Under the pieces are notes generated by a model that was not told the origin of the DNA, did not search any database, and saw nothing but the letters and a program-made list of their open reading frames with translations. Positions 3,272 to 27,292 of a DNA stretch of 64,000 nt are shown piece after piece (the first letter of the stretch is position 1; each line of letters begins with the position of its first letter). The stretch comes from an uncultured Gammaproteobacteria bacterium (GTDB taxonomy: Bacteria > Patescibacteriota > Microgenomatia > Daviesbacterales > UBA10151): assembly GCA_964547465.1 (NCBI GenBank), contig CAZJNI010000001.1:24205-88204 (forward strand). Reading direction: 5' to 3'. The position numbers and the translations under genes were made by a program.

Positions 3272-4420
3272 ATGTCCAATTTTTTTTCCATTCTAGTAAC
3301 TACTCCAATTATCTTTTTTTTATATTTTAATCTCTTTCTATCTCCTGTATTTGCAGATAATTTATCCGATTGTCCCGCTTTTAGGAACGAGCCGTCTCAA
3401 TTATTTAATGATCCCTCAAAAACCCCGAAAGCTAAGTTTTTTGTAACACCAAGTGATAAAGATACTAAATATACTTCCTGGAAGATGCAGTTTGAATCTA
3501 GTGTTCCGCAAAATGTTGGTCCGGCTACTTTAGACACCAGTACAGGTGAGGTCTGGCGGGAAATAATTAGTGGTATGTTCACAAAGTATGATCTATTAAG
3601 TCCTGGACCTCATACTTTTATGCTAATTGGAATCACAGATAAAAACGAAGAAATCCGTCAATGTAGAGGACATTACAGTGTTACTGAATCAGATACCCAA
3701 TGTACTGTTAAACTTTCTGAAACAACAGGGATAACCCCTACGAGCAATCTTGAAGTATCGGGAGAAAATCTGACTAAAGATGAACGGTTTGGAGTTTTTA
3801 TAGATGGTGAAATAATAAAAGGTTCTCATTTATTAGATTTTGTCAGCACCTCTAACTTCTCCGGTGTTTCAATACCTAATAAATATTTATCCCCAAACAC
3901 ATCACATATTGTTAGTATTCGAAAGCAAGATAGCCATATACCTCTATCTGCAAGCAGACCTCTTTTTCCAATTGATTATGGTTCAGACCTTTGTAAAGTA
4001 ACTTTCAGTGTGGGTACACCCTCTGCACCGGGCAGTGTGGTTACTCCGGGAACTGCTCCGGTTCCAGGTACACCAGGGCTAACTGGTCCACCAACCACAT
4101 CTGGAGGGATACCATGTGATACAACAGATCCGGAAAATCCTGGTTTTCAAACAGCCATTGGGTGTGTTCATACCTCACCTGCGGCATTTATTAAGGATTT
4201 TCTTTCTTTTATAATCGGGATTTCCGGGGGGTTGGCGTTTTTGATGATGTTACTCGGAGCATTTCAGATGTTAACTTCTGCCGGAAACCCGGAGACTTTG
4301 CAAGCAGGGCGGGATAGATTCCAAAGTGCAATAATTGGACTGCTGATGGTTATTTTTGCAGTATTATTACTCCAGATAATCGGTTTTGATATCTTAAGAA
4401 TACCTGGATTTGAAAGGTAA
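3272..4420 (+). CDS. Secreted protein: signal peptide, about 250-aa ectodomain, Pro/Thr/Gly linker, and a C-terminal TrbC/VirB2-like pilin domain
   Basis: C-terminus has two hydrophobic helices separated by a small polar loop (LTSAGNPETLQAGRDRFQSAIIGLL), shared with the five downstream paralogs. Confidence 0.45.
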   Translation: MSNFFSILVTTPIIFFLYFNLFLSPVFADNLSDCPAFRNEPSQLFNDPSKTPKAKFFVTPSDKDTKYTSWKMQFESSVPQNVGPATLDTSTGEVWREIISGMFTKYDLLSPGPHTFMLIGITDKNEEIRQCRGHYSVTESDTQCTVKLSETTGITPTSNLEVSGENLTKDERFGVFIDGEIIKGSHLLDFVSTSNFSGVSIPNKYLSPNTSHIVSIRKQDSHIPLSASRPLFPIDYGSDLCKVTFSVGTPSAPGSVVTPGTAPVPGTPGLTGPPTTSGGIPCDTTDPENPGFQTAIGCVHTSPAAFIKDFLSFIIGISGGLAFLMMLLGAFQMLTSAGNPETLQAGRDRFQSAIIGLLMVIFAVLLLQIIGFDILRIPGFER

Positions 4421-4465
4421 AGTGATTTAAGATTTAAGAAATTAGATTTAAGATTAAGAATAGTA

Positions 4466-4852
4466 ATGAAGAATGGCAAAATACAGTCTTTTACAGATTT
4501 GAAAGTTTGGCAAGAAGGGCATATTCTTGTAATTATGGTTTATAAAATAACAAAAAAATTTCCCCAGGAAGAACTATATTCTTTGGTAGACCAAATGAGA
4601 AGAGCAACTTCTTCTATAACAGCTAATATTTCTGAAGGTTTTGGAAGACATTCTTATAAGGAAAAACTGCAATTTTATTATCTATCTCAAGGATCTTTAA
4701 CTGAACTTAAAAATTTCATACTTATTGCAAAAGATGTAGGCTATTTGACTACTAAAGATTTTAATGCATTAGCAGACCAAGCAAATTTAACTCATCAGAT
4801 TTTACAAGGATTTATCAAAAGCACAAAAACATTCATAAATCATAAATCATGA
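4466..4852 (+). CDS. Four-helix-bundle protein (23S rRNA intervening-sequence protein family)
   Basis: DLKVWQ...ITANISEGFGR...signature of the TIGR02436-like family. Confidence 0.65.
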   Translation: MKNGKIQSFTDLKVWQEGHILVIMVYKITKKFPQEELYSLVDQMRRATSSITANISEGFGRHSYKEKLQFYYLSQGSLTELKNFILIAKDVGYLTTKDFNALADQANLTHQILQGFIKSTKTFINHKS

Positions 4853-5181
4853 ATCTTAAATCTATTTTAGCTCTAAAACTACCCGGCGGGAATGAGATAC
4901 CGCTACCAAAAGAACTAACAGATAAAGGCTTATTAGATGTGGCCAGTGTTATTTCCGGTCTTTTAAATATTGCTTTCTATATTGCCATCTTTATGGCATT
5001 TTATTGGGTTATCTGGGCTGCATTTCAGTATATTTTAGCCTCTGGTAAAAAAGAAGACCTGGCAAAAGCCAGATCCAGAATTACCTGGGCGCTAATCGGA
5101 CTGGCTGTAGTTTTTGCAGCATACCTAATTGCAACATACGCATCTGAAATATTCCCATCTCAAACAGGAGTACCATTTTAA
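4849..5181 (+). CDS. TrbC/VirB2-like pilin paralog
   Basis: Transmembrane helix, loop AFQYILASGKKEDLAKARSRITWALIGL, second transmembrane helix; paralogous to neighbours. Confidence 0.45.
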   Translation: MNLKSILALKLPGGNEIPLPKELTDKGLLDVASVISGLLNIAFYIAIFMAFYWVIWAAFQYILASGKKEDLAKARSRITWALIGLAVVFAAYLIATYASEIFPSQTGVPF

Positions 5182-5564
5182 TGAATTTCAAATTTCCAAT
5201 TTCAAATTTCAAATGTCAAATTACTTTGTTACTTGTTACAAGTTATCTGTTACTTGTTACTCCTGCTCATGCCCAGGTTCCCATCAAGGACTATTTTGGC
5301 TTTGGAGATATTAAATCCTTGGGTCAGGGTACCACCAGAATTGTTATACCAATGTTTGAAATTGCTGCTTTTTTGGTTATTTTTTACTTTCTACTTGGTG
5401 CATTCAGGTTTTTGCGGGCAGGAGGAAATAAGGAAGAGGCAGAGGGTGGCAGACAAATGATTAATCATGCCATAATTGGGTTTATACTACTTATGTTTGT
5501 ATATTTACTATTTCAATTTATTCCGGATTTCTTTAATCTGCCGGGAATAGATATAATAAGATAA
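5181..5564 (+). CDS. TrbC/VirB2-like pilin paralog with signal peptide LLLVTPAHA|Q
   Basis: Same C-terminal topology (LGAFRFLRAGGNKEEAEGGRQMINHAIIGF). The first 41 nt are identical to the next gene. Confidence 0.45.
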   Translation: MNFKFPISNFKCQITLLLVTSYLLLVTPAHAQVPIKDYFGFGDIKSLGQGTTRIVIPMFEIAAFLVIFYFLLGAFRFLRAGGNKEEAEGGRQMINHAIIGFILLMFVYLLFQFIPDFFNLPGIDIIR

Positions 5565-6293
5565 ATGAATTTCAAATTTCCAATTTCAAATTTCAAATGT
5601 CAAATCTTGAAGCTATCATGCCTTGTATTACTACTTTTCACTTTTCACTTTTTACTTTTTACTTTTCTTGTCCAGTCAGCATTTGCTGCTAGTTGTCCAG
5701 CTGCAGGAACGAAAGTACCTGGAGACCAACAATTAACAGGCGGAAATAATACAAACCACGAGTATACTGGCAGAGACTGTAGTGCAATTCGTAATTCATC
5801 CGGCAGCATAGCCGGCCCCAGCCAATTCGGGAGAACCGAAAATTATAGATGTCTTGGTGGGTGTAAATATGAAGTAAATTATTGTACCCCCGGCGGGTGT
5901 GAGGCTATATATCCTCAAGAAGAATGCTCTTCAGCCCCTGCTTCTTGTAACAATCCTAATACAGGAGCATTATCACCAATAAGTCAGGTTTTTGGGAAAA
6001 TAATCCCACCCCAACAAATTATAAACTTCGGGTTTGGGGCAAAAGGAATTAGTACACTTTTATCCAACATTATTACCCTGTTTTATTCCATTGCCATAAT
6101 AGTTTTGATTTTTATGCTCCTCTGGGGAGCATGGGACTGGATGACATCAGAAGGTGATAAGGAAAAGTTAAGTTCTGCCCAAAAGAAAATTGTTAATGCC
6201 ATTATTGGAATTATGCTTTTTGCCGTAGCATTTGCCATAATCCAGGTTCTTGGAACTTTTACCGGATTTACCTTTTTTAAACGTGGCCCTTGA
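5565..6293 (+). CDS. TrbC/VirB2-like pilin paralog with a Cys-rich (9 Cys) N-terminal ectodomain
   Basis: WGAWDWMTSEGDKEKLSSAQKKIVNAIIG motif between two transmembrane helices; identical 5' end to the 5181 gene. Confidence 0.45.
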   Translation: MNFKFPISNFKCQILKLSCLVLLLFTFHFLLFTFLVQSAFAASCPAAGTKVPGDQQLTGGNNTNHEYTGRDCSAIRNSSGSIAGPSQFGRTENYRCLGGCKYEVNYCTPGGCEAIYPQEECSSAPASCNNPNTGALSPISQVFGKIIPPQQIINFGFGAKGISTLLSNIITLFYSIAIIVLIFMLLWGAWDWMTSEGDKEKLSSAQKKIVNAIIGIMLFAVAFAIIQVLGTFTGFTFFKRGP

Positions 6294-6706
6294 CAAGAGC
6301 TTTTGTCTATGAATATGATAAATTACTAATGAAAAAATTGGTTGCAGTATTATCTCCTTTATCCTATCTTTTTTTCACACCTTTAGTCTTTGCCGCAGAT
6401 CCAATTATAGTTAAAGCTCCTGAAGGAGGCTATTCAGATTTGGGACTATTTGTCACCAATATTTTAACTTTAGCTTTTGGCTTAGCTATTTTGGTAGTTT
6501 TGGTAATGCTGGTTTGGGGAGCATTTGAGTGGATTACATCAGGCGGAGATAAAGAAGCTGTTGGAAAAGCCAGGAACAGGATTATAAATGCCTTAATCGG
6601 CTTGGCAGTTTTAGCTATAGCCTATGCCCTAACCAGGGTAGCAGGACAATTCCTGGGCTTTGATATTACAAAAGGCATCACAATCCCAACCCCACCACCT
6701 CAATAA
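6290..6706 (+). CDS. TrbC/VirB2-like pilin paralog
   Basis: WGAFEWITSGGDKEAVGKARNRIINALIGL motif. The likely true start is the internal MKKLVAVL signal peptide. Confidence 0.45.
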   Translation: MTRAFVYEYDKLLMKKLVAVLSPLSYLFFTPLVFAADPIIVKAPEGGYSDLGLFVTNILTLAFGLAILVVLVMLVWGAFEWITSGGDKEAVGKARNRIINALIGLAVLAIAYALTRVAGQFLGFDITKGITIPTPPPQ

Positions 6707-6754
6707 TTGATTTATAGATTGATCTTTCATCTTTATTCATGTTAAGTTTTAAAT

Positions 6755-7171
6755 ATGGGGAAACGTATTATGTATTATGTATTGTGTATTGTGGGGTTTT
6801 TATTCATAATACATGCTACCAACTACTTACTACCAACTGTTCATGCTGCTAATTGTGATCCTAATCTGGTAGGTCCCCGTGTACCCGGAGATTGTCCTGC
6901 AGGATTGCAACAAATCGAAGATCTTTTTAAACAAATAATCACCGTTGCAACCGGGCTGGGATTTATTGCGCTTTTAGTGCTAATAGTTTTTGCCGGCTTT
7001 AAATATTTAATGTCAGGCGGAGAACAGAAAGCAGTCCAAGCTGCCCATCAAACCGTAACCTGGGCGCTTTTGGGAATAGTCTTTATGGCAATTGCCTGGT
7101 TAATATTACAACTGATACATGCATTTACTGGTGTTGATGTAACAACATTCACTTTTGGCCTTCCTAAATAG
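6755..7171 (+). CDS. TrbC/VirB2-like pilin paralog
   Basis: FAGFKYLMSGGEQKAVQAAHQTVTWALLGI motif. Signal peptide PTVHA|A. Shares a VPGD motif with the 5565 gene. Confidence 0.45.
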   Translation: MGKRIMYYVLCIVGFLFIIHATNYLLPTVHAANCDPNLVGPRVPGDCPAGLQQIEDLFKQIITVATGLGFIALLVLIVFAGFKYLMSGGEQKAVQAAHQTVTWALLGIVFMAIAWLILQLIHAFTGVDVTTFTFGLPK

Positions 7172-7175: not shown

Positions 7176-7204
7176 TTGACAATACGCATATAATCACATA
7201 TAAT
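7176..7204 (+). promoter_or_regulatory. sigma70-like promoter for the fic gene
   Basis: TTGACA (7176-7181), 17 nt spacer, TATAAT (7199-7204). Confidence 0.5.
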
Positions 7205-7220: not shown

Positions 7221-8276
7221 ATGCGAACTAAATTTGAGAAAAGATTAGCTCAAGTGTCAGCTGAAATTTTAACAAAGATCGCCCGGATTGATGAGTTAAA
7301 AGGCCGGTGGTCTGCCGGAGTAAATTTAAATCCCTATCTTTTGGGAAGACTTAAAAAATCAGTCTTAATTACCTCAACCGGAGCATCTACCAGAATTGAA
7401 GGATCCAGACTTTCTGATAAGGATGTAGAAAAATTAATGCAAGGTATTGCCATTCAAAAATTTGCTGATCGTGATATAGGAGAAGTCCAAGGATATTACG
7501 AACTGCTGGAGAATGTCTTTGGATCATGGGATTCTATCAGATTCTCTGAAAATACTATTAAACATTTTCACCAGCAGCTTTTAAAATACGTGGAGAAGGA
7601 TAAGCTACACCGCGGAGAATATAAAAAAGGGGAGAATAAAGTCCAAATGGTAGATGCAAATGGAAAAATCATTGGAACTGTTTTTGATACAACCCCTGCC
7701 TACCTTACACCCAAACAGATGCAAGAACTGGTGGAATGGACCAAAAATGCATTTGATGATAAAAAATATCATCCTTTACTTATTACGGGGAATTTTTTAG
7801 TGGAGTTTTTGAGTATTCATCCTTTTGAGGATGGAAATGGCAGACTTTCGCGGATTTTAACTAACTTTTTACTTCTTAAGATGGGCTATTTATATATGCC
7901 TTATATTTCCCATGAGAAGTTAATTGAAGAAAAAAAGGGAGGCTATTATCTTGCTTTAAGAAAAAGTCAAAAAACTTTTAAAAAAAGGGGGGATATTACT
8001 GATTGGCTTAATTTCTTTTTGAATATTATATTGGCTCAATCAGAGCAAGCAATTAATCTTGTCTCCTCGGAAAATCTTGAGAGTATCCTTTCAAACAAAC
8101 AGTTGGTTGTATGGAGGTATTTGCAAAGCGTTTCAGAGGCAACACCACGTAAGATAGCCAAAGTTACCAATACTGCCCGGCCGACAGTTTATCAGATACT
8201 TACTAAACTGCTTAAACTTAAAAAAATAGAACGCCTGGGTTTGGGGAGAAGCAGCCGCTACCGGAAGCTTTCTTAA
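7221..8276 (+). CDS. fic: Fic/Doc family protein (AMPylase-type) with C-terminal winged-helix
   Basis: Canonical Fic motif HPFEDGNGRLSR. Confidence 0.8.
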   Translation: MRTKFEKRLAQVSAEILTKIARIDELKGRWSAGVNLNPYLLGRLKKSVLITSTGASTRIEGSRLSDKDVEKLMQGIAIQKFADRDIGEVQGYYELLENVFGSWDSIRFSENTIKHFHQQLLKYVEKDKLHRGEYKKGENKVQMVDANGKIIGTVFDTTPAYLTPKQMQELVEWTKNAFDDKKYHPLLITGNFLVEFLSIHPFEDGNGRLSRILTNFLLLKMGYLYMPYISHEKLIEEKKGGYYLALRKSQKTFKKRGDITDWLNFFLNIILAQSEQAINLVSSENLESILSNKQLVVWRYLQSVSEATPRKIAKVTNTARPTVYQILTKLLKLKKIERLGLGRSSRYRKLS

Positions 8277-16749: not shown

Positions 16750-16753
16750 AAAT

Positions 16754-17564: not shown

Positions 17565-17573
17565 GAGCTTGGA

Positions 17574-18403: not shown

Positions 18404-18441
18404 CTTCAGCATAGAATTTCCCAAAAAATCCTGACGGGATT
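18404..18441. repeat. Repeat B, copy 3 (partial)
   Basis: CTTCAGCATAGAATTTCCCAAAAAATCCTGACGGGATT. Confidence 0.75.
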
Positions 18442-18453
18442 AAGGGTAATCCT

Positions 18454-20594: not shown

Positions 20595-20917
20595 ATGCTC
20601 CTGTTCACGGGACTAAAAATGTGGTCGGTCTCCTGACTTAAAGTTAGGTTGTAGGTGGTAGGTTTTAGGTTATAGCTCTCTTGCGATCACTACAACCTAC
20701 TCACTACTAGCTACCAACTAGCTAATCACAGTTGCGGCACAGCCCAGGATTTACACCTGGTTCCCATTGTTCCTTTCAGCCAAAGGCTGATGGTACACCA
20801 CACCTTTAAAATAACATCTCAAAACTCAAATGTCAAAACTCAAAACTATAACTCAAATGTTAAAACTTTTAAAGATTTTAGATTTAAGATATAGATTTGA
20901 CATTTGAGATCTAAGAT

Positions 20918-22057
20918 TTGAGATTAGTATGGATTTGTCCCATAATGATCTCTTTTGTGCTCCTTGCCATTATTTTTTTCACATTGTATATAGATAATAC
21001 CTATATGGAGCCACACCCTATTCCGCAAAATGTCACTACTTTTCAATTTCATCTGGTCGGGGATATGACTTTAAAGCAATTTATATATCTGGCCGCAGGC
21101 TCCGGTATTGCTTATATTCTCTTTGTCTTTTTTGCCCATGATTATCCTGCTGTTAGTTGGCCCTTGATTATAATATCCGCCCTTTCGGGGGTGGCTTTTG
21201 CTTTTTTACCTGTTAACTCAAGGCCGCTTGATTCCTGGGTTAAAGCATTTCTTAAGGCTATTTATTCCCCAACCAAAAGAGTTTGGAAGAAAAATAATAA
21301 ATCTTACAAAGAAGAGCCTACCTTCAGTAGCAGGTTTGTAGCATATCTTTCAGGGCTACAACCTACTCAACAAATTCAAGCTCCTATCATTATACCTGCA
21401 CCAATTTCTGTACAACCATCTCCACAACCAATTCCCCCAACTGAAACTAAAAAAGAGCCGGAAGACCTGCCTTCTCCGGAACAACTGCAAAAAACTGTGG
21501 ATCTGGCCCGTCAGGCTCAAAGTTTACAAATGAGGATAGTCCAGACAGAAAGGGCTCTAAGCCAGGTTAAGTCAACAGCTCAAAATCAAACCCAAATTCC
21601 GGCTGATTATACCCAGCAGGTAAATAAGATTTTGACTGATTTACAAACTTTAGTTACTCAAGCTTCTCAAATTAAACAACAAATTGAAGCAGTTAATCAA
21701 CCGGAAAGTCCAAAAATAGCACCAATTCCCCTGGTAAAGCCTAAGGTAAAAGTAGTTGTCTCAAATAAACCAAGGCTAACCCAGGTAGCTCTGACTTCTT
21801 TCCCAAATGTAATAAATGGCATAATTAGACAGTCAAATGGAAATTACCTGGAGGGAGCGGTGGTAGTTATTTACGATAAAGAAGGACTACCGGTACGTGC
21901 GCTTAAAACAAACAAACTGGGACAATTCAGCGGTGCTACTCCACTACCTAATGGTACATATACAGTTGAATTGGAAAAAGAAGGTTTTAGCTTTGATGTA
22001 TTACAGGTTGATTTAGTAGGGGCACTGCTGCCACCTTTAATGATTACAGCAAAATGA
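20918..22057 (+). CDS. Membrane protein (2-3 N-terminal transmembrane segments, coiled coil, C-terminal beta-sandwich); candidate VirB3/PrgI-like T4SS component
   Basis: Position immediately upstream of VirB4. The listed start is TTG; the probable true start is the ATG at 20948 (MISFVLLAIIFF...). Confidence 0.35.
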   Translation: MRLVWICPIMISFVLLAIIFFTLYIDNTYMEPHPIPQNVTTFQFHLVGDMTLKQFIYLAAGSGIAYILFVFFAHDYPAVSWPLIIISALSGVAFAFLPVNSRPLDSWVKAFLKAIYSPTKRVWKKNNKSYKEEPTFSSRFVAYLSGLQPTQQIQAPIIIPAPISVQPSPQPIPPTETKKEPEDLPSPEQLQKTVDLARQAQSLQMRIVQTERALSQVKSTAQNQTQIPADYTQQVNKILTDLQTLVTQASQIKQQIEAVNQPESPKIAPIPLVKPKVKVVVSNKPRLTQVALTSFPNVINGIIRQSNGNYLEGAVVVIYDKEGLPVRALKTNKLGQFSGATPLPNGTYTVELEKEGFSFDVLQVDLVGALLPPLMITAK

Positions 22058-22806
22058 ATACAACACAAAAACATTTATCAATTGCTGATATAACAGATAA
22101 TATCCTGCTGCTTAGGGACGGCGGCGGGGCACTAGTTCTGCAGGTCTCTGCTGTTAATTTTGGGTTATTATCAGAGCGGGAGCAAATAGCTATTATTTCC
22201 AGCTTTGCCCAGATGTTAAATTCTCTTTCTTTCTCTATTCAGATCCTCGTTTTTTCAGAGAGACTAAATATTAATTCTTACCTTAGTCTTTTGGATAAAG
22301 CACAAAGTTTGCAAACTAATCCCCTGCTTTCTAAATTAATCGTTAATTATAAGCAGTTTGTCCAGTCAACCATTAAAGAAAACGAAGTTTTAGATAAAAA
22401 ATTCTATATAGTCATACCTTTATACAAAATAGAACTTGGTTTAACAACCTCAAAAGAGGTTTTGCAACAAAAGATAAAAACAGTACTTTTGCCAAGAAGT
22501 GACCAGATTGCGAGACAACTGGCCAGAGTCGGCCTTAAAACTACCCAGCTTAATACAAAAGAGCTTCTGGAATTATTTTATGATATTTATAATGGCCAGT
22601 TTGTGGAGAATGTAGTACCAAAGCCAATTAACCCGGGTGAGATTACTGTAGCGCTAAATCAACCTGAAGTAAAACTTACAACCGAAACATTTAAAACACC
22701 CATTATGGCGCAACCTGCGAAAGTTACCCCACAGCCAAATTTAGTAAGTAGCCAGCCTGTCAGAACTCACCCATTTGTGGTGGAAGAATTGGATGAAAAC
22801 GTATGA
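22054..22806 (+). CDS. VirB4/TrbE N-terminal domain as a separate ORF
   Basis: LLLRDGGGALVLQVSAVNFGLLSEREQ resembles the VirB4 N-terminal domain. Its stop overlaps the next gene start by 4 nt (ATGA). Confidence 0.5.
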   Translation: MNTTQKHLSIADITDNILLLRDGGGALVLQVSAVNFGLLSEREQIAIISSFAQMLNSLSFSIQILVFSERLNINSYLSLLDKAQSLQTNPLLSKLIVNYKQFVQSTIKENEVLDKKFYIVIPLYKIELGLTTSKEVLQQKIKTVLLPRSDQIARQLARVGLKTTQLNTKELLELFYDIYNGQFVENVVPKPINPGEITVALNQPEVKLTTETFKTPIMAQPAKVTPQPNLVSSQPVRTHPFVVEELDENV

Positions 22807-24557
22807 AATTAAGTTTATTTAAAAAATCTAAACCTGAAGAATCAACTGTTCCTCAACTAACCATTGAGGATGTAATTGCTCCCGGGGAATTGGAGGTTGA
22901 TTTTAACCATTTAAGAATAGACAACCGCTTTTTTAGAACCTATTTTGTGTCAAATTATCCCAGGTTTGTTGAGCCTAACTGGCTTGAGCCGGTGATTTCT
23001 TTTGACCATTCTCTTTTAATTTCTATGTTTATATATCCTTCCCAATCTGCCGGGGTTTTGGATGAGTTAAAAAGAAAAATTGCCGAAATGGAAGCAACTA
23101 TCCAGACAGACTTTGAAAGAGGCAGGGCAATTGATCCGGCTGTTGAAGTTGCCCTGGAGGATGCCAAAGGACTGCAAGAACAGTTAGTTAAAGGTGTGGA
23201 GAGATTTTTTCAATTTGCTCTTTATATTACAGTTCCTGCTCAAAGCATGGAAGAGCTAAATAATACCTCCAAGCTGATTGAATCTACTTTGGCCTCACTT
23301 TCCATGACTGCCAAAGCTGCCACTTTGCAAATGGAAGACGGTTTTAAATCAACTCTTCCTCAAGGAACAGATCTTTTGAATTTAAATCACAATATGGATA
23401 CCACATCGCTAGCTACTACTTTTCCTTTTGCCTCATCTGAACTAACTGCTAATGAAGGCATCATGTATGGAATCAATGAACACAATGATTCTTTAATTTT
23501 ATTTGACAGGTTCAGTTTAGAGAACGCGAATTCGGTGGTATTTGCCAAAAGCGGAGCTGGCAAGAGCTATTTGGTCAAACTTGAGGCTTTACGTTCTTTG
23601 ATGTTTGGGACAGAAATTATTGTGATAGATCCTGAACAGGAATACCTGCCTTTAACTCAAGCTGTGGGAGGAGAGTTTATTAACTTTTCCGCCTCATCTC
23701 CAATTAAAATAAACCCGTTTGATTTAAACACCAAACTCTCACCCGGAGAAAATGAACTGGGCAGAAAAATTTTATCCTTAACTACTTTTTTAAAGCTGGT
23801 TTTAGGAAATTTGTCTGCCAACGAGGCTGCAATCTTGGATAGATCCTTAAAACAAACATATGCCTTAAAGGGCATAAACGATGATCCTAAAACTCAAGGT
23901 AGGACTCCGCCTTTAATGGAAGATCTGTATAAAGTATTAATCGGCATGGAAGAACCCTCGGCCCTGGAGCTGGCAGCCAGACTGGAAAGATTTGTCAAGG
24001 GTTCTTTGACTGGAATTTTTTCTGCCTATTCAAATGTAGAAATCTCTAATGCCTTTACTGTTTTTTCTGTGCGGGATTTGCCGGACCAACTGCGGCCTTT
24101 AGCCATCCATATGATTTTAGACTATGTCTGGACCAAGATCAGAAGCAGGCTGAAAAAAAGGATTTTAATTGTGGATGAAGCCTGGTATTTAATGAGAAAT
24201 CCTGATTCTGCTGATTTTTTGGTGGATATGGCCAAAAGAGCGCGCAAATATTATTTAGGCCTGACTACCATCACTCAAGATGTGGAGGATTTCCTGACAA
24301 CAGAGCGGGGCAAAGAAATAATTTCTAACTCCTCCATCCAGACTCTTTTAAAACAGGCTCCTGCCTCAATTGATCTTTTGGCGCAAGTTTTTAACCTTTC
24401 TGAAGGGGAGCAAAGATTGCTTTTGTCAGAAGGAGTTGGAGAAGGATTATTTTTTGCCGGCAATACTCATGTTGCCATGAAAGTGGTGGCCTCCCCACAG
24501 GAACATCAACTAATCACCTCAAATCCTAAGGAATTATTGGCCAGGGAAAGTGTTTGA
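22803..24557 (+). CDS. virB4: VirB4/TrbE/TraC-family T4SS ATPase (C-terminal ATPase portion)
   Basis: Walker A FAKSGAGKS, Walker B ILIVDEAW, TTITQD sensor-like motif. Confidence 0.8.
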   Translation: MKLSLFKKSKPEESTVPQLTIEDVIAPGELEVDFNHLRIDNRFFRTYFVSNYPRFVEPNWLEPVISFDHSLLISMFIYPSQSAGVLDELKRKIAEMEATIQTDFERGRAIDPAVEVALEDAKGLQEQLVKGVERFFQFALYITVPAQSMEELNNTSKLIESTLASLSMTAKAATLQMEDGFKSTLPQGTDLLNLNHNMDTTSLATTFPFASSELTANEGIMYGINEHNDSLILFDRFSLENANSVVFAKSGAGKSYLVKLEALRSLMFGTEIIVIDPEQEYLPLTQAVGGEFINFSASSPIKINPFDLNTKLSPGENELGRKILSLTTFLKLVLGNLSANEAAILDRSLKQTYALKGINDDPKTQGRTPPLMEDLYKVLIGMEEPSALELAARLERFVKGSLTGIFSAYSNVEISNAFTVFSVRDLPDQLRPLAIHMILDYVWTKIRSRLKKRILIVDEAWYLMRNPDSADFLVDMAKRARKYYLGLTTITQDVEDFLTTERGKEIISNSSIQTLLKQAPASIDLLAQVFNLSEGEQRLLLSEGVGEGLFFAGNTHVAMKVVASPQEHQLITSNPKELLARESV

Positions 24558-24572
24558 TGATACACTTAAGTC

Positions 24573-26858
24573 ATGGTAAAAGTAGCAACAAAGTTAACAC
24601 TATCAATAATAGATTTGACCAGAGCTTTAGTTGCCAAAAAAACCCCTGGATATGCCAATGCAGATAAATGGGGTATTTACAGTTACGAGGATGTTATCTA
24701 CCCACAAGCCCGATTAGCTTTTCCCACATATAACAAGCTCTATGACAGTAATGCAGAATTTACCAATTATTTTGTTCGTGATCTTAATAAAAAAGATAGC
24801 CAACTGGTTAAAATTATTGGAGAAAAAAATGTTGAGAAAATCTTAATTGGAGTTTCGGAAACAGAGGGAGAAGTATACGGAGAAGCTGTTCCGGAACAAA
24901 CAGCAGGAGCTGCAGCTTTGGATCAGGGAGTTAGCGGGGAGTCTCCTTCTACAATGGCTGGGGGGATACCTTTTGGCGGAGGAATTTCCGGCACTGCCCC
25001 TGCCCGAAGGATAATCCGTATTATCCCTCACGCACAAGAAGCAGCTAAATCAGATCTGGTTGTTGCAAATAAAAGTGGGGTAGTTAGAGAAGCCGGAGAC
25101 CCGTCAAAATTAGTTAAAACAACCCGCAGTGGAGCAATTATAGAACCCGGGCAACGATCAACATTAGTAACTGCAAACAGTAGCGGGGTAGTCAGGGAAG
25201 CACCACCATCAAAAATATTCATTGCTAACAAGAGTGGTGTGGTTACAGGGGTACGTAATATAAAATCTCCCAGCTGGTTAAAAACTTTTGGGTCTAATGC
25301 ACAAATATTCGCCAAAAAAAACTTAGGAAGAATAGGTAGTGGTCTTGGAGAAATGCTGGGGGGGATAGGCAGGGGGATTGGCGGTCCTGCGCTTAATGGC
25401 TTGTATAATCTCTCGGGAAAGGCAGGGGGTGGTGTTCTTAGTACTGTTGGAAGACTCCCAGGCTTCTCAGGTCCTAAACCTGGTGGCTTTAGCTTATCGA
25501 AGGGTCTTGGTGCGGGAAGGCAGGTAGCACTGGTATCTTTAGCTTTTATCTTACTTTTCGGATTCATTACTTTTTCAGCAGTTTCGCAATCTCCAACCTC
25601 CACAGAAGCCAGCCCGCAAACTCCTGGTTTTATTGGTACATTAGCTCCTCCTCCCAGTCCGGATTATCAAATATTACACGATGATATTTTAAAACAGTTT
25701 GGCGTTGATTTTGACCTACAAAACCCATTTCCCTATGATTATTTAACATATGCTTGGGAAAAGCTCTGGAATGTTTCCAATACAAAGTTTTTAGAACTGG
25801 TCCGTGGAGCGGATAAAAATAAAATCATAACTGTAAAACGGGAGGACAAAGGCTTTAATGAACAGAGAGGCTGTCTTTCTATAATCATGAGCGGTATAAG
25901 CTCGGTCGATCAAAAACCCTACCCAAAAAGTTTATTCCAGGTGGTTTTTATCCACGAGCTAACTCATGTAATACAAAGCTGCAATCCAAATGCTGTAAAT
26001 TTCACTGCGCTGGATGCTGCTCTAAAGCAAGAGGGGGGGATAAGCACTTTTTCACAAGACCCAACCAAGTGTATTAGTGGCGTAACCCAATTAAATGAAG
26101 ACTTCGCAGAAACTCTGGCATATTATTTAAACCAGGAGTGGGGGGAACAGTCTTATTTTAGCACATGCCCGCCAAAAGACAGTACCAATCCAATTTTGAG
26201 AGGAGATAAACCCCTGCACCAACAATTTGTAGCATCTTTACTTGGAGTAACTGCGCTAATCCCTCAAACAATACAATCAGGTAATCTCCCTAAATTCAGT
26301 TGCCCTGTAATAGGAGATGGGGAATCATGGTATGGTTCCTTCCAGGCAGATCCAAAAGATGGCCACTGTGGCTCAAACTATAATCAAAGACTAAAAACCT
26401 CTGATCCAAATTATGTTGCGTGTAGTGGAGATAGTCGGCGGGGTAAGTCCATGGATAGAAAAACAGGCGGTGCCAACGGAGATAATATAGTACTCCCCAT
26501 GATCGATAACAAAATAGTTGAATGGCAACTCATTAATCAATTTGACCTTTCAGCCAATGATTGTTTTGCGGAAGAAATTATTAATCCAGACGGCTTAAAC
26601 GGTGGCTGCGGCAAGGGTTATGTTTTCCAAACCCCGCCTGTTGCAAAACAAGTTAACGGGCAAAACTGGATATTACATTTACTTCACATGGGCCCAACCA
26701 GTTTTAATTTAAACCAAATATATACATCGGGTGAAACTGTAGGTAAAACCGAAGCCATTCATGTGCATATTTCCTTAGGTCAAAATATTTCTAATTCCTT
26801 GAGTCAAACTGAACCAGGATGGAAATCTGTTGATACAGAATTAAAATTATGTCAATAA
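24573..26858 (+). CDS. Membrane-anchored protein with HExxH (HELTH) zinc-peptidase motif and Cys-rich C-terminus
   Basis: Central transmembrane segment (ALVSLAFILLFGFITF); FIHELTHVIQ; Gly-rich repeats. Confidence 0.45.
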   Translation: MVKVATKLTLSIIDLTRALVAKKTPGYANADKWGIYSYEDVIYPQARLAFPTYNKLYDSNAEFTNYFVRDLNKKDSQLVKIIGEKNVEKILIGVSETEGEVYGEAVPEQTAGAAALDQGVSGESPSTMAGGIPFGGGISGTAPARRIIRIIPHAQEAAKSDLVVANKSGVVREAGDPSKLVKTTRSGAIIEPGQRSTLVTANSSGVVREAPPSKIFIANKSGVVTGVRNIKSPSWLKTFGSNAQIFAKKNLGRIGSGLGEMLGGIGRGIGGPALNGLYNLSGKAGGGVLSTVGRLPGFSGPKPGGFSLSKGLGAGRQVALVSLAFILLFGFITFSAVSQSPTSTEASPQTPGFIGTLAPPPSPDYQILHDDILKQFGVDFDLQNPFPYDYLTYAWEKLWNVSNTKFLELVRGADKNKIITVKREDKGFNEQRGCLSIIMSGISSVDQKPYPKSLFQVVFIHELTHVIQSCNPNAVNFTALDAALKQEGGISTFSQDPTKCISGVTQLNEDFAETLAYYLNQEWGEQSYFSTCPPKDSTNPILRGDKPLHQQFVASLLGVTALIPQTIQSGNLPKFSCPVIGDGESWYGSFQADPKDGHCGSNYNQRLKTSDPNYVACSGDSRRGKSMDRKTGGANGDNIVLPMIDNKIVEWQLINQFDLSANDCFAEEIINPDGLNGGCGKGYVFQTPPVAKQVNGQNWILHLLHMGPTSFNLNQIYTSGETVGKTEAIHVHISLGQNISNSLSQTEPGWKSVDTELKLCQ

Positions 26859-27292
26859 AAAAATCCGCTTTAGGTTTTGTAATTATTATTACGCTTCTAA
26901 TTACGTTCTGGGGAATAAAAAGTAGTATAACCCAATCCATTCCCCCTCCTCAATCTGATCCGGTTTCAAAAACTGACAAGCCGACTATTGTTTCCACCAA
27001 GCCTGATCCGCTGGAAGGAGCTGTTGTACCTGCAACTGCAACCATTGAAATTACATTTAACAGACAACTGGAAAATGCCCACGAAACCAAAATCAGGTTT
27101 GATCCTGAAATTCCTTACAAGATTGTTCTATCAGAGGACGGGAAAACTGCCAGAATTACTGCTGATGAACCATTTGAGCTGGGCTTAACTTATACCCTAT
27201 TTATAATCGGGGAAACTAAATTTAAAGGCCTTGGGCAATGGAATGAGGAAAAAATATTCCACTTCCAAACCATTAAATATAGAGGCGTTTAA
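26849..27292 (+). CDS. Small membrane-anchored Ig-like (SbsA_Ig-like) protein
   Basis: N-terminal transmembrane segment followed by a beta-rich about 100-aa domain. Confidence 0.35.
   Translation: MSIKKSALGFVIIITLLITFWGIKSSITQSIPPPQSDPVSKTDKPTIVSTKPDPLEGAVVPATATIEITFNRQLENAHETKIRFDPEIPYKIVLSEDGKTARITADEPFELGLTYTLFIIGETKFKGLGQWNEEKIFHFQTIKYRGV

What the first reader, a model, noticed from the sequence alone, without database searches (positions are those of the whole stretch)
3272..27292. T4SS-like locus with a six-gene tandem array of VirB2/TrbC-like pilin paralogs carrying different ectodomains
Six consecutive genes (3272-7171) share a C-terminal module: transmembrane helix, short polar loop (xGxxxxxxAxxRIxxAxIG), transmembrane helix. 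This is the TrbC/VirB2 pilin topology. Their N-terminal regions differ: a ~250-aa domain with a Pro/Thr linker, a 9-Cys domain, and short ones. They are followed by a Fic gene, a polytopic VirB6/TrbL-like protein with a Gly-rich tail, and then VirB3-like, VirB4 and HExxH/Ig-like membrane proteins. No VirD4 coupling protein, relaxase or VirB11 is visible, so this is not an obvious conjugation module. A host-interaction or cell-cell contact apparatus with a variable set of pilin tips is plausible. The multiplicity and ectodomain fusion of VirB2-like subunits is unusual.
Basis: partly seen in the sequence, partly recalled or inferred. Interest (0 to 1): 0.85.

Follow-up and report, generated by a model that had tools for sequence, protein, structure and literature searches.

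The report
Patescibacterial type IV secretion pilin array
This is the chromosomal type IV secretion locus of an uncultivated ultrasmall bacterium (Candidatus Daviesbacteria), with six divergent pilin genes; such loci were described for this bacterial group in 2023-2025, so it is a typical example with a few new details.

Summary
Six ORFs between 3272 and 7171 each score above Pfam's cut-off for PF18895 (T4SS_pilin). A VirB3-like PrgI gene, a split VirB4 (TrsD-like protein plus a CD1110-type ATPase) and two membrane/Ig-like proteins lie at 20918-27292, next to dnaN and dnaA. The 64-kb window holds no relaxase, VirD4 or VirB11.

- A seventh ORF (4466-4852, a PF05635 four-helix-bundle protein) sits inside the array.
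- About 10.7 kb of other genes separates the two halves of the locus.
- VirB6 homology of the 632-aa polytopic protein could not be shown.

The kind is already published. The Patescibacteria T4SS (VirB4 clade within MPF_FATA, TrsD, PrgI, no relaxase, near dnaA) and its VirB2-like arrays of 2-11 genes, sometimes interrupted by a non-pilin gene and common in Microgenomatia, are in PMC12102498. A six-pilin array is essential in Southlakia epibionticum (PMC10633639).

Details I did not find in those papers:
- The six paralogs are ancient orthologues that keep their order across genomes.
- The lead pilin carries two Ig/FN3-like domains on a Pro/Thr linker.
- PF05635 genes recur beside these arrays.
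- A large, fast-evolving soluble protein always follows the polytopic gene.

Verdict: real, correctly read in outline, a new member of a known kind.

The parts
3272..4420 (+). P1, the lead pilin (382 aa). It consists of a signal peptide, two Ig/FN3-like beta-sandwich domains, a Pro/Thr linker, a small beta-hairpin, and a C-terminal T4SS_pilin helical hairpin.
   Evidence: PF18895 at 35.8 bits, residues 304-370. AF2 model with mean pLDDT 82.7: helix 2-21, strands 37-138 and 145-257, disordered 261-278, helices 303-335 and 340-374. Foldseek against PDB returns tandem FN3/Ig domains at E 8e-6 to 1e-3. There are 48 full-length homologues, and 54 proteins that share only the linker plus pilin module at a median 70% identity.
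4466..4852 (+). Non-pilin gene inside the array: a four-helix-bundle protein of the '23S rRNA intervening sequence protein' family. It is flanked by imperfect inverted heptamer arrays.
   Evidence: PF05635 at 120.6 bits and TIGR02436 at 112.8 bits. Its stop overlaps the P2 start (gap -4). Inverted repeat 4419-4453 / 4833-4867. The same family recurs next to pilin arrays or just upstream of prgI in 6 of 10 occurrences across 80 related loci.
4849..5181 (+). P2, a short pilin (110 aa) with no obvious cleavable signal peptide.
   Evidence: PF18895 at 37.1 bits. Orthologue in L003 at 59% identity in the same position.
5181..5564 (+). P3, a short pilin (127 aa). Its signal peptide is encoded by heptamer tandem arrays.
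   Evidence: PF18895 at 30.1 bits. Its first 42 nt are identical to those of P4. Period-7 arrays at 5184-5222 and 5221-5261. Orthologue in L003 at 56% identity.
5565..6293 (+). P4, a pilin (242 aa) with a Cys-rich ectodomain of about 115 aa (8 Cys).
   Evidence: PF18895 at 35.0 bits, and a weak PF04956 TrbC hit at E 0.0035. The orthologues in L003 and L006 are only 140 and 184 aa, so the ectodomain is lineage-specific.
6290..6706 (+). P5, a short pilin. The listed TTG start lies in a promoter-like TTGACA hexamer, so the true start is probably the ATG at 6329.
   Evidence: PF18895 at 39.2 bits. Promoter-like site 6290-6319, 11 of 12 matches. Orthologue in L003 at 70% identity.
6755..7171 (+). 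P6, a short pilin (138 aa). This type is always the last gene of the array in related genomes.
   Evidence: PF18895 at 32.2 bits. NF045849 (Mycoplasma ICE pilin-like protein) at E 8.9e-7. P6-type pilin is last in L003, L006, L008, L009, L029, L035, L037, L044, L047, L055, L069 and L079.
7221..8276 (+). Fic-domain protein with a C-terminal winged-helix domain. It is an accessory insertion, not a conserved part of the system.
   Evidence: PF02661 at 57.5 bits. Motif HPFEDGNGRLSR and inhibitory-type STRIEG. Perfect TTGACA-17-TATAAT promoter at 7176-7204. No homologue in any of 80 related loci.
8316..10214 (+). Conserved polytopic membrane protein (632 aa). It has a signal peptide, a conserved two-Cys ectodomain, multiple transmembrane helices and a Gly-rich tail. 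It is a candidate VirB6 equivalent by position and topology only.
   Evidence: No Pfam or NCBIfam hit. It lies between the pilin array and prgI in 24 of 80 loci. The family has 3222 representatives at E<=1e-3. TrbL is hit in only 1 of 42 relatives, at E 0.008. The AF2 model has mean pLDDT 56.5 and finds no PDB fold match.
10209..14402 (-). Large soluble protein (1397 aa, no Cys, highly charged, disordered N-terminus), convergent on the polytopic gene. The position is conserved but the sequence evolves very fast.
   Evidence: No family or PDB hit. A convergent ORF of 574-1397 aa occupies this slot in 22 of 23 related loci, with almost no mutual similarity. The window protein is 29% identical to that of L004, where VirB4 is 82% identical.
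20918..22057 (+). VirB3-like PrgI membrane protein with a long linker and a C-terminal beta-sandwich (CarboxypepD_reg-like) domain.
   Evidence: PF12666 PrgI at 37.6 bits against a cut-off of 27. PF13620 at 31.4 bits, just below its cut-off.
22054..22806 (+). TrsD-like protein, homologous to the N-terminal domain of VirB4.
   Evidence: NF045975 VirB4_plasma region 132-278 at E 2.9e-9, and NF041427 TrsD at E 5.8e-8. It overlaps prgI and virB4 by 4 nt each.
22803..24557 (+). VirB4 ATPase of the monoderm (CD1110 / MPF_FATA) type.
   Evidence: NF045971 at 391.3 bits against a cut-off of 325. PF19044 at 80.6 bits. P-loop AKSGAGKS read from the translation and Walker B ILIVDE. It is 57-84% identical to VirB4 in 80 Patescibacteria loci.
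24573..26858 (+). Single-pass membrane protein (761 aa) with a repeat-rich N-terminal half and an extracellular Cys-rich HExxH domain. It may remodel the cell wall or process other components.
   Evidence: HELTH at residue 461. No Pfam or PDB hit. Conserved after virB4 in L001, L002, L003, L005, L008 and L045.
26849..27292 (+). Small membrane-anchored Ig-like (Big_5) protein, the last gene before dnaN.
   Evidence: PF13205 at 34.2 bits against a cut-off of 23.6. Conserved in L001-L003, L005, L006, L008 and L009.

Best explanation
The window comes from a Candidatus Daviesbacteria genome (class Microgenomatia, phylum Patescibacteria/CPR). The region is that lineage's chromosomal type IV secretion system, placed next to the replication origin genes dnaN and dnaA.

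Its motor is a monoderm-type VirB4 ATPase. With it come a separate TrsD-like N-terminal-domain protein and a VirB3-like PrgI membrane protein.

Upstream lies an operon of six VirB2-like pilins (PF18895). These are old, order-conserved paralogues, not recent copies.

Inferred mechanism:
1. The pilins are inserted into the membrane by Sec/YidC and processed by signal peptidase at AxA-type sites.
2. They are held in the membrane as helix-loop-helix hairpins, with the basic loop facing the cytoplasm.
3. The VirB4/TrsD/PrgI platform extracts them, probably with the conserved 632-aa polytopic protein acting as the VirB6 equivalent.
4. They assemble into a heteromeric pilus or stalk that crosses the monoderm envelope.
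5. The lead pilin P1 carries two Ig/FN3-like domains on a flexible Pro/Thr linker at its N-terminus. The N-terminus is the end exposed on the outside of known VirB2-type pili, so P1 would act as the adhesin. P4 carries a lineage-specific Cys-rich domain.

There is no relaxase or coupling protein nearby, and the position is fixed on the chromosome. The system therefore most likely mediates contact with a host cell and exchange of proteins or other molecules, not conjugation.

Shown here: family membership, gene content, synteny, orthology, and the fold of P1. Inferred: pilus assembly, the adhesin role, and the substrate.

The confidence of 0.6 is for the whole statement, inferred mechanism included. 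The identification of the locus as a Patescibacteria-type T4SS with a VirB2-like pilin array would on its own rate about 0.9.
For: Pilin family: all six ORFs score above the PF18895 cut-off. All six also give sub-threshold matches that cover nearly the whole NF045849 model, a pilin-like conjugal transfer protein of Mycoplasma ICEs (E 8.9e-7 to 0.021).

Topology: each has two C-terminal hydrophobic helices. The AF2 model of P1 shows a helical hairpin at 303-335/340-374.

T4SS core: VirB4 matches NF045971 at 391 bits, above its cut-off of 325. TrsD-like and VirB4 N-terminal hits are at E 1e-8 to 1e-9. PrgI is above its cut-off. The genes overlap by 4 nt, which suggests translational coupling.

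Taxon and synteny: 80 Patescibacteria loci carry VirB4 at 57-84% identity, and the closest named ones are Candidatus Daviesbacteria. The order pilins, polytopic protein, large convergent ORF, prgI, trsD, virB4, (HExxH, Big_5), dnaN, dnaA recurs across them.

Orthology and conserved order of the paralogues.

P1 ectodomain: tandem FN3/Ig folds. The family has 48 full-length homologues, and 54 proteins that share only the linker plus pilin module at about 70% identity with other ectodomain lengths.

No conjugation genes: no relaxase, VirD4 or VirB11 in 64 kb.

Literature: the same architecture, arrays of 2-11 pilins, absence of a relaxase and proximity to dnaA are described in PMC12102498. The pilin series and T4SS are essential in Southlakia epibionticum (PMC10633639; PMC12857230).
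Against: - No pilus made by a patescibacterial T4SS has been observed. That these proteins polymerise is an inference.
- The direct sequence link to canonical VirB2/TrbC (PF04956) is weak. Only P4 hits it, at E 0.0035 and below the cut-off. The same model also weakly hits 7 of 42 relatives of the polytopic protein, so it tends to pick up transmembrane hairpins in general.
- A profile of the six modules found no VirB2 or TraA chain in the PDB.
- I could not superpose an isolated C-terminal module on a solved pilin.
- The VirB6 role of the 632-aa protein rests on position and topology only.
- No VirB8 or VirB1 homologue was identified.
- A coupling protein could be encoded elsewhere in the genome, as PMC12102498 reports for most Patescibacteria.
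- The two halves of the locus are separated here by 10.7 kb of other genes.
Confidence: 0.6

Rival explanations
1. The six pilins are interchangeable variants used for antigenic or host-range variation. Alternative major subunits would be expressed at different times, as proposed for the VirB2 paralogue arrays of Bartonella and Anaplasma. Switching might use the heptamer tandem repeats in the 5' ends of the genes.
For: - PMC12102498 suggests that this versatility may help adaptation to different host strains.
- The ectodomains of P1 and P4 differ between orthologues.
- Period-7 tandem arrays lie in the first 20-150 nt of P3, P4, P6 and the polytopic gene. Because 7 is not a multiple of 3, slippage would shift the reading frame.
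- P3 and P4 share an identical 42-nt start.
Against: - The paralogues are only 21-42% identical to each other, yet 56-70% identical to their same-position orthologues in another genome. The order P1...P6 is kept across several Microgenomatia lineages. This is the pattern expected of specialised subunits, not of a turnover-prone variant pool.
- The genes overlap or abut (gaps -4, -1, 0, -4), which suggests co-translation rather than alternative expression.
- Heptamer arrays are a feature of the whole window (23 arrays, many of them intergenic or in housekeeping genes), not specific to the pilins.
- No copy-number variants could be found.
Confidence: 0.15
2. The locus is a remnant or a functional part of an integrative conjugative element that transfers DNA. 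The relaxase and coupling protein would be encoded elsewhere, or be too divergent to recognise.
For: - VirB4, TrsD and PrgI are homologous to components of Gram-positive conjugation systems.
- All six pilins weakly resemble a Mycoplasma ICE pilin-like protein.
- T4CP homologues exist elsewhere in many Patescibacteria genomes.
- Toxin-antitoxin modules and a Fic gene sit inside the locus.
Against: - There is no relaxase, T4CP or integrase in 64 kb.
- The locus keeps the same chromosomal position, next to dnaN/dnaA, across dozens of genomes and several candidate phyla. That indicates vertical inheritance of a housekeeping-like system.
- PMC12102498 finds relaxases in only 103 of about 3000 genomes, and rarely near virB4.
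- In S. epibionticum the T4CP homologue is not essential, while the T4SS is.
Confidence: 0.05
3. The system imports material rather than exporting it. It would take up DNA or nucleotides, as the ComB T4SS of Helicobacter or the archaeal Ced system do, or take other nutrients from a host cell.
For: - VirB4 gives a weak hit to the archaeal DNA importer CedB (NF041017, E 2.3e-14).
- Reviews raise uptake as a possible function of the essential Saccharibacteria T4SS (PMC11665869; PMC12857230).
- These organisms lack nucleotide and amino-acid biosynthesis, according to the same reviews.
Against: - The CedB hit is far weaker than the match to conjugative VirB4 (53 against 391 bits).
- No competence or DNA-processing genes lie next to this locus in the window.
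- Nothing in the sequence indicates the direction of transport.
Confidence: 0.15
4. The PF18895 proteins do not form a filament. They would be two-helix membrane anchors that display surface domains, or parts of the membrane channel itself. The name 'pilin' would then reflect only a shared hairpin topology.
For: - No direct hit to solved VirB2 or TraA sequences.
- The polytopic neighbour contains a segment that weakly resembles the pilin loop plus second helix (hhalign probability 19%; TrbC hits in 7 of 42 relatives). This hints that the hairpin could be a channel-building unit.
- Monoderm T4SSs otherwise lack pili.
Against: - All six pass the curated cut-off of a family defined as T4SS pilins.
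- The genes are tightly linked to VirB4, VirB3 and TrsD across the phylum.
- Structure-based annotation in S. epibionticum also called them pilin subunits.
- Four of the six have only short N-terminal tails, so they would display nothing.
Confidence: 0.15

Closest known systems
Patescibacteria-clade T4SS with VirB2-like pilin arrays (Quinonero-Coronel et al. 2025, PMC12102498)
   Same: - VirB4 nested in the monoderm MPF_FATA class.
- TrsD-like gene next to virB4, and a PrgI/VirB3 homologue.
[quoted passage not shown]
- No relaxase.
- Location next to dnaA/dnaN.
- VirB6 is hard to detect in Microgenomatia.
All of these are seen here.
   Different: Nothing differs in kind. The points below are ones I did not find in that paper:
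- The order-conserved orthology of the six paralogues.
- The Ig/FN3 ectodomain of the lead pilin.
- The identity of the interrupting gene (PF05635).
- The fast-evolving large ORF.
- The Fic gene and toxin-antitoxin island inserted in this particular genome.
T4SS of Southlakia epibionticum ML1 (Saccharimonadia), SEML1_0006-0019 (Wang et al. 2023, PMC10633639)
   Same: - A series of six predicted pilins inside a Gram-positive-like T4SS cluster.
- No recognisable coupling protein or relaxase in the cluster.
- Peptidase-type genes downstream of virB4.
   Different: - It belongs to a different class (Saccharimonadia, not Microgenomatia).
- Essentiality was shown there by Tn-seq, and nothing functional is known here.
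- VirB6 is detectable there but not here.
VirB2 paralogue arrays of Bartonella and Anaplasma phagocytophilum effector-translocating T4SSs
   Same: Tandem, sequence-divergent VirB2-type genes in a non-conjugative, host-interaction T4SS (cited in PMC12102498).
   Different: - Those are diderm MPF_T systems with an outer-membrane core complex.
- Their paralogues are thought to serve antigenic variation.
- Here the paralogues are conserved, ordered orthologues in a monoderm system.
Gram-positive conjugative T4SSs of the MPF_FATA class (pCF10 Prg, pGO1 Trs, Clostridioides CTn2 CD1110 family)
   Same: A CD1110-family VirB4 above the equivalog cut-off, a TrsD-like protein and PrgI.
   Different: - Those systems have a relaxase and a coupling protein.
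- They use surface adhesins such as PrgB.
- They are described as lacking VirB2-type pilins.
Mbov_0395 / MMCAP2_0565 pilin-like conjugal transfer protein of Mycoplasma ICEs (NCBIfam NF045849)
   Same: All six window pilins align to nearly the whole 80-residue model, at E 8.9e-7 to 0.021.
   Different: - All scores (14.5-28.5 bits) are below the equivalog cut-off of 40, so none is a member.
- Those proteins belong to mobile elements that carry conjugation genes.

Membership tests
Pfam PF18895 T4SS_pilin | Score at or above the family's gathering cut-off (26.6 bits) | tested here: met
   The six ORFs score 35.8, 37.1, 30.1, 35.0, 39.2 and 32.2 bits.
Pfam PF18895 T4SS_pilin | Two hydrophobic helices joined by a short polar, basic loop at the C-terminus | tested here: met
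   Hydropathy scan and alignment of the six modules. AF2 helices 303-335 and 340-374 in P1.
Pfam PF18895 T4SS_pilin | N-terminal export signal, so that the N-terminus lies outside the cell | tested here: inconclusive
   Five of the six have a hydrophobic N-terminal segment ending in an AxA-like site (VFA, AHA, AFA, VFA, VHA), read from the translations. P2 has none. No signal-peptide predictor was available.
Canonical VirB2/TrbC pilin (Pfam PF04956) | Score at or above the gathering cut-off (27.9 bits) | tested here: not met
   Only P4 hits, at 18.0 bits and E 0.0035. The other five give no hit at E<=0.1.
Canonical VirB2/TrbC pilin (Pfam PF04956) | Sequence similarity to pilins with solved pilus structures | tested here: not met
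   A profile of the six modules searched against all PDB chain sequences found no VirB2 or TraA hit at E<=10.
Canonical VirB2/TrbC pilin (Pfam PF04956) | Polymerises into an extracellular filament in a VirB4-dependent way | not testable with these tools
   Needs cryo-ET, cryo-EM or biochemistry.
Patescibacteria-clade T4SS (derived from MPF_FATA) | VirB4 ATPase of the monoderm FATA type | tested here: met
   NF045971 (CD1110 family) at 391.3 bits against a cut-off of 325. It is 57-84% identical to VirB4 of 80 Patescibacteria loci. No phylogeny was computed.
Patescibacteria-clade T4SS (derived from MPF_FATA) | TrsD-like (VirB4 N-terminal-domain) gene adjacent to virB4 | tested here: met
   ORF 22054-22806 matches NF041427 TrsD at E 5.8e-8 and residues 132-278 of VirB4_plasma at E 2.9e-9. 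Both are below the equivalog cut-offs but significant. The gene is conserved next to virB4 in most of the 80 loci.
Patescibacteria-clade T4SS (derived from MPF_FATA) | PrgI/VirB3 homologue | tested here: met
   PF12666 at 37.6 bits against a cut-off of 27.
Patescibacteria-clade T4SS (derived from MPF_FATA) | No relaxase or coupling protein in the neighbourhood, and a chromosomal position near dnaA/dnaN | tested here: met
   None in 64 kb. dnaN is at 27307-28449 and dnaA at 29126-30484, as read from the translations and their matches in related loci.
VirB6/TrbL (Pfam PF04610), for the 632-aa protein | Sequence match to a VirB6/TrbL/PrgH profile | tested here: not met
   No hit for the window protein. 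None among 31 close relatives. One of 42 diverse relatives hits, at E 0.0084 and below the cut-off. Profile searches against PDB sequences were empty.
VirB6/TrbL (Pfam PF04610), for the 632-aa protein | Polytopic membrane protein with five or more helices, encoded within the T4SS cluster | tested here: met
   The AF2 secondary structure shows long helices through 162-447 and 498-542. The position between pilins and prgI is conserved.
VirB6/TrbL (Pfam PF04610), for the 632-aa protein | Fold similarity to solved VirB6-family subunits | tested here: inconclusive
   The model has mean pLDDT 56.5. Foldseek against PDB gave nothing below E 5. The model is too poor to decide.
Conjugative element (ICE or plasmid) | Relaxase, type IV coupling protein, and integrase or replication functions | tested here: not met
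   None among the ORFs of the window that I scanned. The rest of the genome was not available.
Fic/DOC (Pfam PF02661) | HxFx(D/E)GNGRxxR active-site motif and a score above the cut-off | tested here: met
   57.5 bits against a cut-off of 24. HPFEDGNGRLSR at residue 200.

The most novel reading that the evidence does not exclude
The six pilins are six ancient, order-conserved subunit classes of one heteromeric T4SS filament in a monoderm bacterium. A modular lead pilin would display exchangeable Ig/FN3-type adhesin domains on a Pro/Thr tether. The conserved cytoplasmic four-helix-bundle (PF05635) protein and the fast-evolving large soluble protein next to the polytopic gene would be, respectively, a dedicated assembly or regulatory factor and the secreted substrate. 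The locus would then encode a complete adhesin-tipped host-contact organelle, with parts that published surveys have not assigned.
Probability: 0.25. Interest if true: 0.6.

Novelty: new member of a known kind. Interest (0 to 1): 0.3.

Why it matters
The T4SS is one of the few systems known to be essential for the epibiotic life of Patescibacteria, and its function is still unknown (PMC11665869, PMC12857230). This locus adds no new kind of system. It is, however, a clean Microgenomatia example that sharpens testable questions:

- Do the six ordered pilin classes play major and minor subunit roles?
- Is the Ig/FN3-bearing lead pilin the adhesin that surveys did not find?
- Is the fast-evolving large protein beside the polytopic gene the substrate?
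- Why do PF05635 genes keep turning up in these operons?

If a pilus is confirmed, it would be the first VirB2-type pilus in a monoderm.

Tried and rejected
- **Pilin profile against PDB sequences.** A profile of the six pilin modules found only designed helical proteins, and no VirB2 or TraA.
- **Structural superposition of a pilin module on VirB2/TraA.** This was not possible. The only pilin model is the full-length P1, and its Foldseek matches are dominated by the Ig/FN3 domains.
- **VirB6 identity of the 632-aa protein.** All of these were negative or too weak: Pfam and NCBIfam on the protein; Pfam on 31 close and 42 diverse relatives; profile against PDB; an AF2 model with pLDDT 56.5; Foldseek against PDB; and a profile search of the 5.8-billion-protein database, which returned only unannotated close relatives.
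- **Pilin module against the polytopic family.** hhalign gave probability 19%, so the idea that the polytopic protein contains a pilin-like hairpin remains undecided.
- **Sub-domains.** Pfam scans of the HExxH protein, the P1 and P4 ectodomains and the ectodomain of the polytopic protein, at E<=10, found nothing.
- **1397-aa protein.** No family hit, no PDB hit, and no detectable homologue in same-position ORFs other than L004.
- **DGR hypothesis for the PF05635 gene.** Rejected. The match to the Avd equivalog is weak (22 bits against a cut-off of 80). The only reverse-transcriptase-like hit is an RNase H/RVT_3 domain at 36347-36760.
- **Fic as a T4SS effector, as in the Bartonella Bep proteins.** Considered unlikely. 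It has a C-terminal HTH domain rather than a transfer signal domain, it has its own consensus promoter, and it is absent from all related loci.
- **Strain variants of the heptamer tracts.** Two exact-pattern scans of metagenome contigs found nothing. The look-up of contigs encoding P1 returned only a 1.4-kb contig.
- **Literature on heptamer repeats in Patescibacteria.** Nothing relevant was found.

Full report
**1. What is in the sequence**

Nine + strand ORFs lie between 3272 and 10214, and most of them abut. Six of them score above the Pfam gathering cut-off for PF18895, 'Type IV secretion system pilin' (30.1-39.2 bits against 26.6). These are 3272-4420, 4849-5181, 5181-5564, 5565-6293, 6290-6706 and 6755-7171, which I call P1 to P6. 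In every case the match covers the C-terminal 60-70 residues.

A hydropathy scan finds two C-terminal hydrophobic segments in each. The modules align without difficulty at 21-42% pairwise identity, with an invariant Gly in the loop and an A..G motif in the second helix. The repeated module is therefore real and not a chance resemblance.

ORF 4466-4852 is a four-helix-bundle protein of the '23S rRNA intervening sequence protein' family (PF05635 at 120.6 bits, TIGR02436 at 112.8 bits). Its stop codon overlaps the start of P2.

After P6 come two more genes:
- A Fic gene (PF02661 at 57.5 bits, motif HPFEDGNGRLSR).
- A 632-aa polytopic protein with a Gly-rich tail and no family hit.

**2. The second half of the locus**

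The second half lies at 20918-27292. It contains:
- A PrgI (VirB3-like) protein with a C-terminal beta-sandwich domain (PF12666 at 37.6 bits against 27).
- A 250-aa protein homologous to TrsD and to the N-terminal domain of VirB4 (E 6e-8 and 3e-9).
- A 584-aa VirB4 ATPase of the Gram-positive CD1110 family (NF045971 at 391 bits, above its cut-off of 325). Its Walker B motif is intact, and an AKSGAGKS P-loop can be read in the translation.
- A 761-aa single-pass membrane protein with an HExxH motif and no family hit.
- A small Big_5 Ig-like protein.

prgI, trsD and virB4 overlap by 4 nt each. dnaN and dnaA follow immediately on the other strand.

**3. What separates the two halves**

The two halves are 10.7 kb apart. 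The interval holds:
- A 1397-aa ORF on the - strand with no detectable family.
- An AAA_14/DUF4143 ATPase and four PIN/Phd-type toxin-antitoxin pairs.
- A 468-aa gene of unknown function behind a cobalamin riboswitch (RF00174 at 61.8 bits).

**4. No conjugation genes**

I scanned the ORFs of the 64-kb window against Pfam, including every ORF long enough to encode a coupling protein or a relaxase. The rest of the window is housekeeping: YidC, LeuRS, TsaD, L25, glycan synthesis genes and others. There is no VirD4/TcpA-type coupling protein, relaxase, VirB11 or integrase.

**5. Where it comes from, and the conserved layout**

VirB4 finds 80 loci in a species-representative genome collection at 57-84% identity. 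The records that carry a specific name are almost all Patescibacteria; some auto-labelled MAG titles name other groups. The closest named ones are Candidatus Daviesbacteria, followed by Curtissbacteria, Levybacteria, Woesebacteria and other Microgenomatia. Homologues of P1 and of the polytopic protein are likewise named Daviesbacteria or Microgenomates.

I annotated the ORFs of those loci with the window's proteins and with an HMM of the six modules. This gives a recurring layout:
1. Large pilin, often followed by a PF05635 gene.
2. Three to five small pilins.
3. The polytopic protein.
4. A large convergent ORF.
5. prgI, trsD and virB4.
6. In Daviesbacteria, the HExxH and Big_5 proteins.
7. 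dnaN and dnaA.

The locus is therefore a vertically inherited chromosomal system near the origin, not a mobile element. The Fic gene has no counterpart in any of the 80 loci, and it has its own perfect TTGACA-17-TATAAT promoter. I treat it, and the toxin-antitoxin island, as insertions specific to this genome.

**6. Comparison with what is published**

A 2025 survey (PMC12102498) describes this system in detail:
- VirB4 is present in 2,417 of 3,035 Patescibacteria genomes and forms a clade nested in the monoderm MPF_FATA class.
- TrsD is the most abundant associated component, and PrgI-type VirB3 is present.
- VirB6 is scarce in Microgenomatia, which the authors attribute to 'extreme sequence divergence'.
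- Almost no relaxases are found.
- Coupling-protein homologues are usually far from virB4.
- The locus lies close to dnaA and dnaN in Microgenomatia and Paceibacteria.

In Southlakia epibionticum the T4SS cluster, including a series of six pilins, is essential for epibiotic growth and lacks recognisable coupling and relaxase proteins (PMC10633639; PMC12857230).

That is correct as a reading, but it is not new.

**7. Details I did not find in those papers**

(a) *Order-conserved orthology.* In L003, where VirB4 is 83% identical, the five pilins within the fetched flank are best matches of P2, P3, P4, P5 and P6, in that order. They are 56-70% identical over the C-terminal 90 residues. Paralogues within the window are only 21-42% identical. 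In more distant Microgenomatia a P1-type large pilin is always first and a P6-type pilin always last. This argues for specialised subunit classes rather than a pool of interchangeable variants.

(b) *The lead pilin.* The AF2 model of P1 (mean pLDDT 82.7) shows these parts:
- A signal helix.
- Two beta-sandwich domains (about 32-138 and 145-257).
- A disordered Pro/Thr linker (261-278).
- A small beta-hairpin.
- The helical hairpin (303-335 and 340-374).

Foldseek against the PDB returns tandem FN3/Ig domains of adhesion molecules at E 8e-6 to 1e-3.

Among the 120 best relatives, 48 align over the full length. Another 54 align only from about residue 260 onward, at a median 70% identity, and their total lengths range from 250 to 622 aa. 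The anchor is thus strongly conserved while the displayed part changes.

P4's Cys-rich domain of about 115 aa is absent or shorter in the orthologues of L003 and L006. PMC12102498 reports finding no adhesins. These ectodomain-bearing pilins are candidates for that role.

(c) *PF05635 genes.* Six of the ten PF05635 genes in the 80 loci lie within 600 nt of a pilin gene or directly upstream of prgI. That zone makes up 6% of the sequence (binomial p about 9e-6). The loci are related to each other, so this p-value overstates independence.

(d) *The large convergent ORF.* An ORF of 574-1397 aa follows the polytopic gene in 22 of 23 loci. These proteins share a composition: 15-18% acidic and 13-16% basic residues, almost no Cys, and usually Pro/Gly/Glu-rich N-termini. 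They share almost no sequence. The window protein is 29% identical to that of L004, where VirB4 is 82% identical. It shows no detectable similarity to that of L003, where VirB4 is 83% and the polytopic protein 53% identical.

**8. What could not be shown**

- *Link to canonical VirB2.* The link rests on the definition of PF18895, on the literature, and on the hairpin fold. Only P4 touches PF04956, at E 0.0035. A profile of the six modules finds no solved pilin.
- *Mycoplasma ICE pilin-like family.* All six give sub-threshold but nearly full-length matches to NF045849 (E 8.9e-7 to 0.021). This hints that such two-helix proteins also exist in monoderm FATA-type systems. It bears on the open question in PMC12102498 of whether the pilins were co-opted from diderm systems. 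It is weak evidence.
- *VirB6 assignment.* The role of the 632-aa protein remains positional and topological. No profile, structure or database route connected it to VirB6, TrbL or PrgH. Its family is large, with 3222 cluster representatives.
- *Pilin-like hairpin in the polytopic protein.* A weak profile-profile match aligns the pilin loop and second helix with residues 190-237 of this protein (probability 19%). It is not interpretable on its own.

**9. Most likely mechanism**

Steps 1, 2 and 5 are shown here. Steps 3, 4 and 6 are inferred from how VirB2-type systems work.
1. The pilins carry export signals and a hairpin with a basic loop.
2. They are encoded with VirB4, a TrsD-like protein and PrgI.
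3. VirB4 extracts the membrane-embedded pilins and drives their polymerisation on a VirB3/VirB6-type platform.
4. The filament or stalk crosses the monoderm envelope.
5. P1 and P4 carry N-terminal domains.
6. Because the N-terminus faces outward in known VirB2-type pili, those domains decorate or cap the filament and bind a host cell.

The direction of transport and the substrate are unknown. The fast-evolving large protein is a candidate substrate or cytoplasmic partner.

**10. Rivals**

- *Variant pool or phase variation (0.15).* It is weakened by the conserved orthology and by the overlapping genes. It is kept alive by the heptamer tracts in the 5' ends of P3, P4, P6 and the polytopic gene.
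- *Conjugation (0.05).* It is weakened by the missing genes and the fixed chromosomal position.
- *Import (0.15).* It cannot be separated from export by sequence alone.
- *Non-filament membrane anchors (0.15).* It cannot be excluded without structural work.

**11. Verdict**

The finding is real and was read correctly in outline. It belongs to a kind of system that has been in the literature since 2023-2025. I rate it a new member of a known kind, with interest 0.3. The residual interest lies in the subunit orthology, the adhesin-like lead pilin, the PF05635 association and the fast-evolving neighbour.

Noticed in passing
whole window, e.g. 1497-1528, 4424-4459, 4833-4862, 5184-5261, 5568-5667, 6765-6790, 8326-8479, 14405-14439, 15911-15978, 20645-20925, 28452-28483, 33403-33435, 33908-33946, 34996-35028, 35352-35380, 41000-41028: The window holds 23 tandem arrays of period 7, each with about 4-6 copies and each with a different unit. 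Ten Markov-shuffled copies of the window gave 1 in total. The arrays sit mostly at gene boundaries and in the first 20-150 nt of ORFs. There they encode the 7-aa-periodic signal peptides of P3, P4 and the polytopic protein, and orthologues in other Daviesbacteria have similar periodic leaders of varying length. The feature is patchy among related genomes, at 0 to 4.5 arrays per 10 kb. Slippage by one unit would shift the reading frame. No variants and no literature were found.
   Followed up: partly
20606-20817 (-) and 19188-20594 (-); also L001 3237-3461, L009 7549-7694, L005 7918-7996: A cobalamin riboswitch (RF00174, 61.8 bits) lies directly upstream of a 468-aa gene of unknown function with a C-terminal Cys-rich zinc-ribbon-like tail, next to prgI. 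Homologous or same-position genes in three related Daviesbacteria loci also carry a cobalamin or AdoCbl-II riboswitch. This is a B12-regulated gene with no family assignment, in a lineage not expected to make B12.
   Followed up: partly
10209-14402 (-) and the equivalent slot in 22 related loci: A large soluble, Cys-poor, highly charged protein always lies convergent on the polytopic T4SS gene, but its sequence is almost unrecognisable between genomes. The window protein is 29% identical to that of L004, where VirB4 is 82% identical. It shows no similarity to that of L003, where VirB4 is 83% identical. It is either extremely fast-evolving or repeatedly replaced.
   Followed up: partly
4466-4852 (+), flanks 4419-4453 and 4833-4867; L037 4622-5086, L054 1353-1724, L029 7585-7974, L035 7162-7548, L007 182-556, L014 6746-7225: PF05635 four-helix-bundle ('23S rRNA IVP') genes recur inside pilin arrays or just upstream of prgI: 6 of 10 copies fall in 6% of the sequence. 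In the window the gene is bracketed by imperfect inverted heptamer arrays (74% complementary over 35 nt), and its stop overlaps the next pilin's start. It may mark an RNA processing site or act as an assembly factor. This was not tested.
   Followed up: partly
5180-5221 and 5564-5605: The first 42 nt of P3 and P4, start codon included, are identical, while the rest of the two genes is only distantly related. This suggests recent gene conversion or a shared repeat-derived leader.
   Followed up: no
14599-19111 (-), 1687-2820 (+): Two AAA_14/DUF4143 ATPase genes and four PIN-domain toxin / Phd-type antitoxin pairs are inserted in and beside the T4SS locus. They are absent from this position in most related loci.
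   Followed up: partly
8316-10214 (+), residues about 190-237: The first transmembrane pair of the polytopic protein weakly resembles the pilin loop plus second helix (hhalign probability 19%). Seven of 42 family members give weak TrbC/VirB2 hits. P6 weakly hits the CD3337/EF1877 mobilome membrane protein family. There may be a shared hairpin building block between the pilins and the channel protein, but this is undecided.
   Followed up: partly
1-1552 (-): A partial ORF at the window edge encodes a SpoIID-domain protein, a peptidoglycan lytic transglycosylase family (PF08486 at 54.9 bits). It lies 1.7 kb upstream of the pilin array. No VirB1 homologue was found in the locus, so this could be the wall-remodelling partner. 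This was not tested.
   Followed up: no
2820-2860 and 3197-3277: A direct repeat (ACCCTAAATTACAAAATGTG[C/G]TAAGC ... AATTTTAATGTCC) occurs upstream of a tiny ORF and again upstream of P1. A 33-aa hydrophobic ORF (3078-3179) lies between the two copies, as read from the sequence. These may be promoter or leader elements of the pilin operon.
   Followed up: no
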